Shown piece by piece: positions 62,455 to 62,493 of a stretch of 64,000 bases of DNA (its first letter is position 1; each line of letters opens with the position of its first letter). The position numbers were made by a program, and so were the translations under genes. The stretch comes from Escherichia coli (GTDB lineage Bacteria > Pseudomonadota > Gammaproteobacteria > Enterobacterales > Enterobacteriaceae). The stretch lies in NCBI RefSeq assembly GCF_016903815.1, contig NZ_CP069973.1; one strand, given 5' to 3'. The notes beneath the pieces were generated by a model, which worked only from the letters and a program-made list of their open reading frames with translations, did not search any database and had not been told where the DNA came from.

Positions 62455-62493
62455 ACTCCTGTGAAAGCGGCATAGTGCCGCTTTCACAGGAGT
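62455..62493. terminator. Perfect 17-bp inverted repeat (actcctgtgaaagcggc-atagt-gccgctttcacaggagt) between convergent genes; likely bidirectional terminator
   Basis: Read directly in the sequence; the right arm ends at the stop codon of the minus-strand esterase gene. Confidence 0.6.

What the first reader, a model, noticed from the sequence alone, without database searches (positions are those of the whole stretch)
62455..62493. Perfect 17-bp inverted repeat at the convergent junction of the CX5R ORF and the esterase gene
Seen: actcctgtgaaagcggc / gccgctttcacaggagt with a 5-nt loop and no mismatches; the right arm abuts the esterase stop codon. Inference: it is most simply a bidirectional intrinsic terminator (weak T-tracts) insulating the two genes. 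A perfect 17-bp palindrome could also be a protein-binding site or a recombination scar marking the island junction.
Basis: inference. Interest (0 to 1): 0.3.

Follow-up and report, generated by a model that had tools for sequence, protein, structure and literature searches.

The report
Perfected hairpin at a recombination joint
The palindrome is a displaced copy of the hairpin that normally follows the nadS antitoxin gene: its outer edge is the seam where a 2.4-kb gene segment was spliced against the esterase stop codon, and a later clustered mutation of the template-switch type made it perfect, so it is a well-documented but ordinary example of known mutational processes rather than a canonical terminator.

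Summary
The repeat is perfect (17 bp as reported, 18-19 bp on extension), is the longest in the window and is far beyond chance.

The window is the E. coli fabY-yiiE variable locus. Bases 62391-62494 are a second, displaced copy of the last 26 bp of the nadS antitoxin gene plus its downstream hairpin. The native copy lies about 1.8 kb further on, just past the window end.

Homology to every other copy stops at 62494, the outer base of the palindrome. There GGAGTT is shared with the ancestral esterase flank. Outgroups show that fabY and the esterase were originally direct neighbours, so the CX5R segment is an insertion and the hairpin marks its joint.

Of 5,426 complete genomes, 329 carry this joint. 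The hairpin is perfect in 120 and imperfect in the rest (176 + 4 exact matches to two imperfect forms). No intermediates exist, and the perfect form occurs in no other context. The changes all copy the left arm, which is the signature of quasipalindrome correction by replication template switching.

There is no T-run on either strand, no Rfam match and no other copies.

The parts
62454..62494 (.). Perfect palindrome/hairpin (18-bp arms with loop ATAGT, or 19-nt arms with a 3-nt gap)
   Evidence: RNA core -33.9 kcal/mol on either strand; as single-stranded DNA -23.6 kcal/mol.
62454..62471 (+). Left arm AACTCCTGTGAAAGCGGC. It is unchanged between the perfect and imperfect alleles and is the inferred template for the correction.
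   Evidence: Identical in the window, L040, L041, L042-L045, L002 and L008. The native copy 2 differs only by G>A at the position equivalent to 62461.
62477..62494 (+). Right arm GCCGCTTTCACAGGAGTT, the arm that was rewritten
   Evidence: Other alleles read GCCGCCTGCTCAGGAGTT, GCCGC-TGCTCAGGAGTT or (G)GCCGCCTGTGCAGGAGTT.
62482..62486 (+). The derived positions: T62482, T62484 and A62486 (C, G and T in the CCTGCTC allele; gap, G and T in the C-TGCTC allele)
   Evidence: One search lists 62482T>C, 62484T>G, 62486A>T (or 62482T>-). No genome carries only one or two of these changes.
62489..62494 (.). GGAGTT, the microhomology at the joint. It is shared by the hairpin end (caGGAGTTttgctATG in the native context) and the ancestral esterase 3' flank (ccGGAGTTaccttcc).
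   Evidence: Perfect-allele genomes match the ancestral junction query from exactly the first G of GGAGTT.
62391..62494 (+). Displaced duplicate (copy 1) of the nadS 3' end plus its downstream hairpin. About 86% identical to copy 2, which would lie at window-equivalent 64207-64311, beyond the window end (L001 10108-10212).
   Evidence: Local alignment; megablast matches of query bases 67-170 overlapping nadS in other genomes.
62391..62415 (+). Relic of the last 26 nt of nadS, with a 1-nt deletion and the stop codon TAG changed to GAG; non-coding
   Evidence: Alignment (ATGTGC-GCAGGCACTTAGCTGCGAG versus ATGTGCTGCAGGCACTTAACCGTTAG).
60095..62390 (+). CX5R-gene segment, absent from the ancestral layout. 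It contains the ORF 60471/60510-62324 (604-617 aa, motif CKSAKDRT).
   Evidence: It replaces the 57-bp fabY-esterase spacer of layout C.
62493..63401 (-). Esterase (alpha/beta hydrolase, Abhydrolase_3). Its stop codon 62495-62493 is embedded in the base of the hairpin.
   Evidence: Pfam E = 4e-68; PGAP CDS in L001 8394-9302.
63630..63941 (+). HigB-2/RelE-like toxin gene of the toxin-antitoxin pair whose antitoxin gene (nadS) supplied the duplicated 3' end
   Evidence: Weak RelE Pfam hit; annotated as toxin HigB-2 in L040.
63942..64000 (+). Start of nadS (HTH antitoxin, NadS family), cut by the window end
   Evidence: L001 9843-10133; NCBIfam NadS 1.6e-16.

Best explanation
The palindrome is a structural scar with a two-step history. 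It is not a purpose-built terminator.

Step 1 (shown by comparison; the order of events is inferred). The hairpin natively lies just downstream of the nadS antitoxin gene. There its right arm carries the AGGAG Shine-Dalgarno of a small 70-codon ORF and is followed by TTTT. A copy of the nadS 3' end plus this hairpin, already attached to the right end of the CX5R-gene segment, was joined to the 3' flank of the esterase gene by illegitimate recombination. The joint is at a GGAGTT microhomology lying inside a 12-of-14 near-homologous patch. This put 2.4 kb between the ancestrally adjacent fabY and esterase genes. It also placed the hairpin's outer base pairs on the esterase stop codon and cut the native T-run down to TT.

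Step 2 (inferred from an all-or-none polymorphism). In one sub-lineage the imperfect hairpin, a quasipalindrome, was corrected in a single replication template switch. The nascent leading strand had copied the left arm, the loop and GCCGC. It then folded back, copied its own left arm (TTTCAC) and returned to the template at AGGAGTT. That produced the perfect repeat.

Present-day effect (inferred). At most it acts as a stable 3'-end hairpin on the two convergent transcripts, with poor intrinsic termination.
For: Locus identity and the four layouts.

Homology boundary: in B-type genomes the match ends at query base 170, which is window 62494. Window 62391-62494 aligns to L001 10108-10212, the last 26 nt of nadS plus 79 nt downstream.

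Three-way junction with shared GGAGTT. Seen from the other side, 2,309 genomes have the undisturbed fabY-57 bp-esterase junction. Exactly 329 match it only from the joint onward, at the first G of GGAGTT in perfect-allele genomes. The 57-bp spacer is absent from the window.

Ancestral state: fabY and the esterase are directly convergent in Salmonella, C. koseri and a third outgroup, and Salmonella also has the toxin and antitoxin beside them.

The joint predates perfection: the same joint carries imperfect hairpins in L041-L044.

Counts among the 329 joint carriers: 120 perfect, 176 exact C-TGCTC, 4 exact CCTGCTC. No genome lies within two mismatches of the perfect 81-mer except the 120 exact ones. 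The >=99% identity class is the same 120, so the perfect arm occurs in no other context in 5,426 genomes.

All changes make the right arm the exact reverse complement of the left arm. The chance that three random substitutions in the arm do this is 4.5e-5.

The + strand is the leading strand (positive GC skew throughout; same orientation as K-12 at 4.078 Mb). So the rewritten arm is the one synthesised second on the leading strand. A nascent strand ending in GCCGC already forms a 6-bp priming stem of -7.3 kcal/mol.

Literature: quasipalindromes become 'perfect or more perfect' through nascent-strand template switching in E. coli, studied with an 18-bp reporter and showing strand bias, with most inducers acting only on the leading-strand reporter (PMC7202029). 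Imperfect repeats are preferentially corrected to perfect ones in proteobacteria (PMC5941160). Template switching can perfect a stem in a single event (PMC8794818). Homology-facilitated illegitimate recombination joints usually carry 3-10 bp of microhomology (PMC3240628).

Against a canonical terminator: no T-run on either strand, not called by the scan, with a positive control.
Against: No transcript data exist for this layout, because K-12 has deleted the hairpin. A terminating or stabilising role therefore cannot be excluded.

The perfect allele is present in 120 of 329 carriers and on at least two CX5R haplotypes (window versus L040). That could reflect selection rather than drift plus recombination.

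The immediate precursor haplotype was not sampled. The perfect-allele relic differs from the sampled imperfect ones at 2-5 further sites within about 130 bp.

Other tight clusters of differences in this segment, for example 62424-62427, come from allele mixing. Clustering alone is therefore not proof of a single event.

The order 'CX5R-plus-relic layout first, then the joint to the esterase' is inferred. The 12/14 similarity between the ancestral esterase flank and the imperfect right arm could instead mean that the ancestral-looking layout retains a remnant of the arm.

In the E. coli conjugation study, homology-facilitated illegitimate recombination was rare and 3 of 4 joints had no homology.
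Confidence: 0.77

Rival explanations
1. Functional bidirectional intrinsic terminator. The hairpin stops both the CX5R and esterase transcripts, and the perfect allele was favoured because it terminates or stabilises better after the esterase lost its ancestral downstream sequence.
For: Position between two convergent stop codons. Very stable RNA stem on both strands. In the native context the imperfect hairpin is followed by TTTT and could terminate the higB-nadS operon on the + strand. The rearrangement removed the ancestral 12-bp repeat between fabY and the esterase. The perfect allele reached 120 of 329 carriers.
Against: There is no T/U-run after the stem on either strand. The tails are ACCTTCCC and CTGAATGC, or at best 4 T in 8-10 bases if the outer TT is unpaired. 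It is not called by the scan that does call 31563-31602. Most carriers, at least 180 of 329, keep hairpins 10-15 kcal/mol weaker, so there is no strong constraint. The joint itself truncated the native T-run.
Confidence: 0.15
2. Stepwise compensatory evolution. Three independent point mutations were fixed one after another under selection for a tighter stem, with no template switch.
For: Selection on RNA stems can fix compensatory changes, and the segment is polymorphic.
Against: No genome among 5,426 has one or two of the changes. All changes are on one arm, and none adjusts the left arm. From the commonest imperfect allele the path would need an insertion plus two substitutions that land exactly on the complement. 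The probability for random substitutions is 4.5e-5.
Confidence: 0.05
3. The perfect palindrome is ancestral, and all imperfect versions are decayed copies.
For: Imperfect variants differ among themselves in the centre of the right arm.
Against: Every imperfect variant shares C (or a gap) and G at the positions equivalent to 62482 and 62484. This includes copies in the native context, in the layout without the esterase and in L008, a separate species-representative genome titled E. coli. The perfect form occurs only at the derived joint and only in a subset of its carriers.
Confidence: 0.02
4. Protein-binding or site-specific recombination site, for example a NadS/HigA operator, a CRP-like site or a recombinase core site used for cassette exchange.
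For: Perfect dyad symmetry. The arms contain TGTGA...TCACA. Several rearrangement endpoints lie nearby: the joint, an IS5-family insertion 8 nt upstream in L004 and the K-12 deletion.
Against: The TGTGA/TCACA spacing is 19 nt, not the 6 nt of a CRP site (own knowledge of the consensus). A different 8-bp palindrome lies at the higB-nadS promoter, where an antitoxin operator is expected (~63573-63589). Most carriers have a broken dyad. There is no recombinase, integrase or transposase domain nearby, and the PGAP 'transposase' label on the CX5R ORF has no domain support. It is a single locus, not a repeated site.
Confidence: 0.01

Closest known systems
[quoted passage not shown]
   Same: An imperfect inverted repeat of about 18 bp becomes perfect through a multi-base change templated by the other arm. 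The changes are confined to one arm. The polarity fits the leading-strand class, the one most stimulated in the reporters.
   Different: Here the event is inferred from natural polymorphism (120 versus 209 genomes) in a non-coding scar. It was not observed in a reporter, and neither the mutational intermediate nor its genetic dependence was tested.
Evolutionary correction of short inverted repeats in proteobacterial intergenic regions (PMC5941160) and template-switch creation or repair of RNA stems (PMC8794818)
   Same: Comparative-genomic signature: orthologous imperfect and perfect repeats, with arm homogenisation in a single step.
   Different: The arms here are much longer than most reported cases. 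The repeat is also a displaced duplicate sitting on a rearrangement joint, so no conserved RNA gene or known regulatory stem is being maintained.
Homology-facilitated illegitimate recombination / microhomology-mediated joints (PMC3240628 and the work it cites)
   Same: A novel junction between sequences that are not adjacent in the ancestral layout. There are 6 bp of exact microhomology within the reported 3-10 bp range, long homology (fabY, dtd) on the other side, and no target-site duplication or element ends.
   Different: Neither the donor nor the route (import versus intrachromosomal deletion) is known. In the E. coli conjugation study the process was very rare and most joints lacked homology.
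Rho-independent (intrinsic) bidirectional terminators, for example window 31565-31600
   Same: A stable stem-loop between convergent genes that can fold on both strands.
   Different: It lacks the A-run/T-run flanks that give a U-tract on each strand. The stem is unusually long, and the esterase stop codon lies inside it.
REP/BIME-type palindromic units that stabilise mRNA 3' ends (own knowledge)
   Same: An extragenic palindrome at the 3' end of genes that could protect mRNA from 3' exonucleases.
   Different: It is not a dispersed family. There is one locus, two copies, and chance-level matches elsewhere.

Membership tests
Intrinsic (Rho-independent) terminator | Stable G+C-containing stem-loop in the transcript | tested here: met
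   19 pairs, -33.9 kcal/mol core on both strands.
Intrinsic (Rho-independent) terminator | U-rich tract immediately 3' of the stem (on both strands for a bidirectional one) | tested here: not met
   The tails are ACCTTCCC (+) and CTGAATGC (-). It is not called by the scan, which does call 31563-31602.
Intrinsic (Rho-independent) terminator | Transcript 3' ends map to the site, independent of Rho | not testable with these tools
   No RNA data are available, and K-12 lacks the hairpin.
Quasipalindrome correction by template switching | An imperfect inverted repeat at the orthologous site in relatives (the precursor) | tested here: met
   The same joint carries imperfect arms in L041-L044; 176 + 4 genomes match the two imperfect forms exactly.
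Quasipalindrome correction by template switching | The new sequence equals the reverse complement of the other arm, with clustered multi-base change confined to one arm | tested here: met
   62482, 62484 and 62486 all change to the complement of the left arm, which is itself unchanged.
Quasipalindrome correction by template switching | Single event: no intermediates | tested here: met
   No genome within 2 mismatches of the perfect 81-mer other than the 120 exact matches, among 5,426 complete genomes. Draft genomes were not searched.
Quasipalindrome correction by template switching | No alternative donor carrying the new sequence (excludes gene conversion or import) | tested here: met
   The perfect arm is absent from every other context in E. 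coli. The left arm has no non-chance matches outside Escherichia.
Quasipalindrome correction by template switching | Dependence on replication and strand (exonuclease or AZT effects, orientation) | tested here: inconclusive
   The polarity is only consistent: the + strand is the leading strand and the later-synthesised arm was rewritten. No experiment was possible.
Microhomology-mediated illegitimate recombination joint (HFIR-type) | A junction of sequences that are non-adjacent in the ancestral arrangement | tested here: met
   The ancestral fabY-esterase adjacency is present in 2,309 E. coli genomes and three outgroups. The joint is present in 329 genomes.
Microhomology-mediated illegitimate recombination joint (HFIR-type) | 3-10 bp of shared bases at the crossover | tested here: met
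   GGAGTT (6 bp) lies within a 12/14 patch.
Microhomology-mediated illegitimate recombination joint (HFIR-type) | A homologous anchor on the other side, with an imported donor fragment | tested here: inconclusive
   fabY/dtd homology exists to the left. Import and intrachromosomal deletion cannot be told apart.
Mobile-element end / site-specific recombination site | Associated recombinase or transposase, terminal repeats, target duplication | tested here: not met
   No such Pfam or NCBIfam domains in the neighbours. The PGAP 'transposase' is the C-terminal half of the CX5R ORF. No flanking direct repeat of insertion type was seen.
Dispersed palindromic repeat (REP-like) | Many copies per genome | tested here: not met
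   There are 2 matches in the window, which are the two arms. There are 35 matches in 100,044 genomes against about 35 expected by chance, and at most 2 places per E. coli genome.
Known RNA family (Rfam) | Match to a curated covariance model | tested here: not met
   No relevant match at E <= 1 in 59000-64000.

The most novel reading that the evidence does not exclude
The nadS-downstream hairpin is a recurrent fragile or recombinogenic site that mediates cassette exchange at the fabY-yiiE locus. The joint, an IS5-family insertion 8 nt upstream and several deletions all end at or near it. Its perfected version may also have been co-opted as the replacement 3'-end element of the esterase mRNA after the ancestral downstream sequence was lost, so that a template-switch mutation created a selected regulatory stem in one step.
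Probability: 0.12. Interest if true: 0.45.

Novelty: new member of a known kind. Interest (0 to 1): 0.25.

Why it matters
It gives a clean natural example, backed by 5,426 complete genomes, of two textbook mutational processes acting at one site. The first is a microhomology joint that inserted a gene segment exactly at a stop codon. The second is a later all-or-none conversion of an 18-bp quasipalindrome to a perfect palindrome, with the polarity expected for a leading-strand template switch.

In practice it warns against reading every strong hairpin between convergent genes as a terminator. It also supplies naturally occurring allele pairs, perfect versus imperfect hairpin at the same joint, that could be used to measure what stem perfection does to termination and mRNA stability. 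It does not reveal a new kind of system.

Tried and rejected
1. Single-event model, in which the joint and the perfect arm were made together by fold-back synthesis. Rejected, because the identical joint exists with imperfect hairpins (L041-L044).

2. Dispersed repeat family. Rejected.

3. Known RNA family. None found.

4. Canonical terminator. Not called, and a positive control works. The 12-bp repeat in the ancestral fabY-esterase spacer is also not called by the scan, so I do not claim that a canonical terminator was lost.

5. CRP-like site. The TGTGA/TCACA half-sites are 19 nt apart, which is the wrong spacing.

6. NadS operator. A different palindrome sits at the operon promoter.

7. Outgroup alignment of the esterase 3' flank, to decide whether the 12/14 patch is native. 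The intergenic DNA is not conserved between genera, so only synteny was informative.

8. Identity of the CX5R ORF. No Pfam, NCBIfam or PDB sequence match even at relaxed thresholds.

9. My first inverted-repeat census used too small a distance and missed the target. It was repeated correctly.

Full report
**Observation.** The repeat extends by one pair (A62454/T62494). The repeat finder reports it as 19-nt arms with a 3-nt gap, the longest inverted repeat in the window. In 40 composition-matched simulated windows the longest perfect arm was 14, and the analytic expectation for arms of 18 or more is 7e-6. As RNA it folds at -36.0 kcal/mol (+ strand) and -40.6 kcal/mol (- strand) in a 71-nt context, with z about -7 to -8. 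The esterase stop codon (62495-62493 on the - strand) lies inside the base of the stem. The CX5R ORF ends 130 nt upstream at 62324.

**Where this is.** The window is 100% identical to E. coli chromosomes such as strain 7/2 and covers the fabY (yiiD) to yiiE interval. That interval exists in several layouts:
- Layout C, e.g. ATCC 25922: fabY, a 57-bp spacer, esterase (-), a HigB-2-like toxin, nadS, hairpin, two small ORFs, yiiE.
- Layout B, e.g. Z30 and O157:H7: fabY, CX5R gene, hairpin, degenerate small-ORF remnants, yiiE, with no esterase and no toxin-antitoxin pair.
- Layout A, this window: fabY, CX5R gene, hairpin, esterase (-), toxin, nadS, a second hairpin, small ORFs, yiiE.
- K-12 has a further deletion that keeps only the promoter and first ~75 nt of the CX5R ORF and has lost the hairpin.

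**The hairpin is a displaced duplicate.** Window 62391-62494 aligns to L001 10108-10212, which is the last 26 nt of nadS plus 79 nt downstream ending with the hairpin. The window copy has a 1-nt deletion and has lost the stop codon. In the native context the stem is imperfect. Its right arm contains AGGAG seven bases before the ATG of a 70-codon ORF that PGAP annotates in some genomes, and TTTT follows the stem. L008, a separate species-representative genome titled E. coli, has an intact nadS followed directly by the imperfect hairpin. The element is not dispersed. The left arm gives 35 matches in 100,044 species genomes against about 35 expected by chance, with one Escherichia hit. E. coli genomes have at most two places. 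Rfam has nothing.

**The outer edge of the palindrome is a recombination joint.**
- In layout-B genomes homology to the window stops at base 62494.
- Three sequences can be laid side by side: the hairpin end in its native context (...CTCAGGAGTT|TTGCTATGACC), the ancestral esterase flank (...GGTCCGGAGTT|ACCTTCCCGC) and the window (...CACAGGAGTT|ACCTTCCCGC). They show a crossover inside a shared GGAGTT.
- From the other side, 2,309 genomes carry the undisturbed fabY-spacer-esterase junction. Exactly 329 match it only from the joint onward, and perfect-allele genomes start at the first G of GGAGTT. The same 329 are recovered by queries spanning the joint. The 57-bp spacer is absent from the window.
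- Genomes with imperfect hairpins align 10 bases further, because the ancestral flank CCTGGTCCGGAGTT matches the imperfect arm CCTGCTCAGGAGTT at 12 of 14 positions. The joint therefore formed in a short near-homologous patch.
- The esterase is a widespread Enterobacteriaceae gene. In Salmonella, C. koseri and a third outgroup it is the direct convergent neighbour of fabY, and in Salmonella the toxin and HTH antitoxin follow it. Layout C is therefore ancestral and the CX5R segment with its attached relic and hairpin is the insertion.
- Six bases of microhomology, long homology on the fabY side and no transposase, integrase or element ends match homology-facilitated or microhomology-mediated illegitimate recombination, whose joints typically carry 3-10 bp (PMC3240628).
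- Whether the event was an import or an intrachromosomal deletion, and whether layout B preceded layout A, are inferences.

**The perfection is secondary.** The same joint occurs with imperfect hairpins: GCCGCCTGCTCAGGAGTT in L042-L044 and GCCGC-TGCTCAGGAGTT in L041. The latter form is also found in the native downstream context in L004 and L045. Among the 329 carriers, 120 have the perfect 81-mer, 176 have exactly the shorter imperfect form and 4 have exactly the CCTGCTC form. With a threshold admitting up to two mismatches, the perfect 81-mer still finds only those 120, all at 100%, so no intermediates exist. The >=99% class of the unrestricted search is the same 120. The perfect arm therefore occurs in no other context in 5,426 genomes.

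The differences are T62482, T62484 and A62486 against C (or a gap), G and T. Each makes the right arm the exact reverse complement of an unchanged left arm. Three random substitutions in the arm would do this with probability 4.5e-5. RNA stability rises from between -18.8 and -23.6 kcal/mol to -33.9 kcal/mol. DNA hairpin stability rises from -13.6 or -15.6 to -23.6 kcal/mol.

**Mechanism.** This is the signature of quasipalindrome correction. The nascent strand folds back, copies its own first-made arm and returns to the template, making the repeat "perfect or more perfect" (PMC7202029; PMC5941160; PMC8794818). The + strand has positive GC skew across the window and the locus has the K-12 orientation at 4.078 Mb, clockwise of oriC (the oriC position is from my own knowledge). 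On the leading strand the left arm is therefore made first and the right arm second, and the right arm is the one rewritten. A nascent strand ending in GCCGC already forms a 6-bp priming stem of -7.3 kcal/mol. The E. coli reporters, built on an 18-bp quasipalindrome, show strand bias, with most inducers acting only on the leading-strand reporter. This polarity argument shows consistency, not proof.

**Function.** A canonical bidirectional intrinsic terminator is not supported. Neither strand has a T-run after the stem, and the scan does not call it although it calls the 18-pair terminator at 31563-31602. The joint itself cut the native TTTT to TT. More than half of carriers keep a much weaker stem. 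A modest role as a 3'-end hairpin that slows exonucleases or polymerase remains possible and untested. K-12 data cannot help because the hairpin is deleted there. A protein site is unlikely:
- The dyad is broken in most carriers.
- The TGTGA/TCACA half-sites are 19 nt apart.
- A different palindrome sits at the higB-nadS promoter, where an antitoxin operator would be expected.

**Caveats.**
- The exact precursor haplotype was not sampled. The perfect-allele relic differs from the sampled imperfect ones at 2-5 nearby sites.
- The segment is mosaic, and other tight clusters of differences, such as 62424-62427, arise from allele mixing.
- The perfect allele sits on at least two CX5R haplotypes (window versus L040). 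That implies later recombination, or less likely recurrence.
- The 12/14 patch admits the alternative that the ancestral-looking layout keeps a remnant of the arm.

**Verdict.** The palindrome is real, far beyond chance and well explained. It is a displaced nadS-downstream hairpin that marks an illegitimate-recombination joint and was later perfected by a template-switch mutation. Both processes are known, so this is a new, unusually well-documented instance rather than a new kind of element.

Noticed in passing
window 60471/60510-62324 (+): The CX5R ORF is an uninterrupted 604-617 codon frame with the motif VVMGCKSAKDRT. From memory this resembles the CX5R motif of SopB/IpgD and inositol 4-phosphatases. 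It has no Pfam, NCBIfam or PDB sequence match and only 8 protein clusters, all Escherichia/Shigella 'hypothetical'. PGAP splits it into a 'pseudogene, missing C-terminus' plus a 'transposase' CDS, which looks like a mis-annotation.
   Followed up: partly
L046 (K-12 MG1655) 2441-3291; CX5R remnant about 2841-2915: The 850-bp unannotated fabY-yiiE gap of K-12 holds the promoter region and first ~75 nt of the CX5R ORF. These are fused by deletion to the degenerate small-ORF remnant, and the hairpin is gone.
   Followed up: partly
window 60100-62494 versus 62495-63930: Polymorphism density changes at the hairpin. Layout-A genomes L040, L041, L043 and L044 differ from the window at 23-56 sites to the left of the joint but at only 0-1 sites to the right. 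This fits a mosaic origin and continuing allele exchange on the CX5R side.
   Followed up: partly
L003 5111-5323 (native context; outside the window, equivalent to just past 64311): A 70-codon ORF (MTRNRAERRHH..., Cys-rich) starts 7 nt after the native hairpin, whose right arm supplies its AGGAG. It is annotated in some genomes and not in others, has no family match and is degenerate in layout B and in K-12.
   Followed up: partly
window about 63573-63589: A perfect 8-bp inverted repeat, GTACGTCA A TGACGTAC, lies just upstream of the best promoter-like site (-35 at 63601) of the toxin-nadS operon. It is a likely antitoxin operator and is unrelated in sequence to the finding.
   Followed up: no
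L004 about 2950-4002: An IS5-family element (ISKpn26-like) is inserted 8 nt upstream of the hairpin and has removed most of the CX5R gene. This is another rearrangement endpoint next to the hairpin.
   Followed up: no
window 62420-62432: A second small hairpin in the relic exists in two forms: ATGGC-GAA-GCCAT in the window, and GGCAT-GGTT-ATGCC in the native copy. L042 and L044 carry the native-like form at copy 1 (differences at 62424-62427). This suggests patchy exchange between the two copies.
   Followed up: no
window 23769-23837 and 40520-40588: The same 16-nt inverted-repeat pair (CCCCTTTTGATTTGTT / AAGAAATCAAAAGGGG, 37 nt apart) occurs twice, 16.7 kb apart, so a longer sequence is repeated in the window.
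   Followed up: no
window 31565-31600 and 40419-40448: Two perfect inverted repeats have A-run/T-run flanks (GAAAAAAGGCGACAGA/TCTGTCGCCTTTTTTC and AAAAAACCTGCCA/TGGCAGGTTTTTT). They look like genuine bidirectional terminators and served as a contrast to the finding. The first is called by the scan and the second is not.
   Followed up: partly
L049 (Salmonella enterica) 3114-3168 and 4909-4918: In Salmonella the esterase and fabY stop codons are only 8 bp apart. The antitoxin gene is followed by a different G+C-rich hairpin shared with fdhE, so the E. coli nadS-downstream hairpin is not conserved outside Escherichia.
   Followed up: partly
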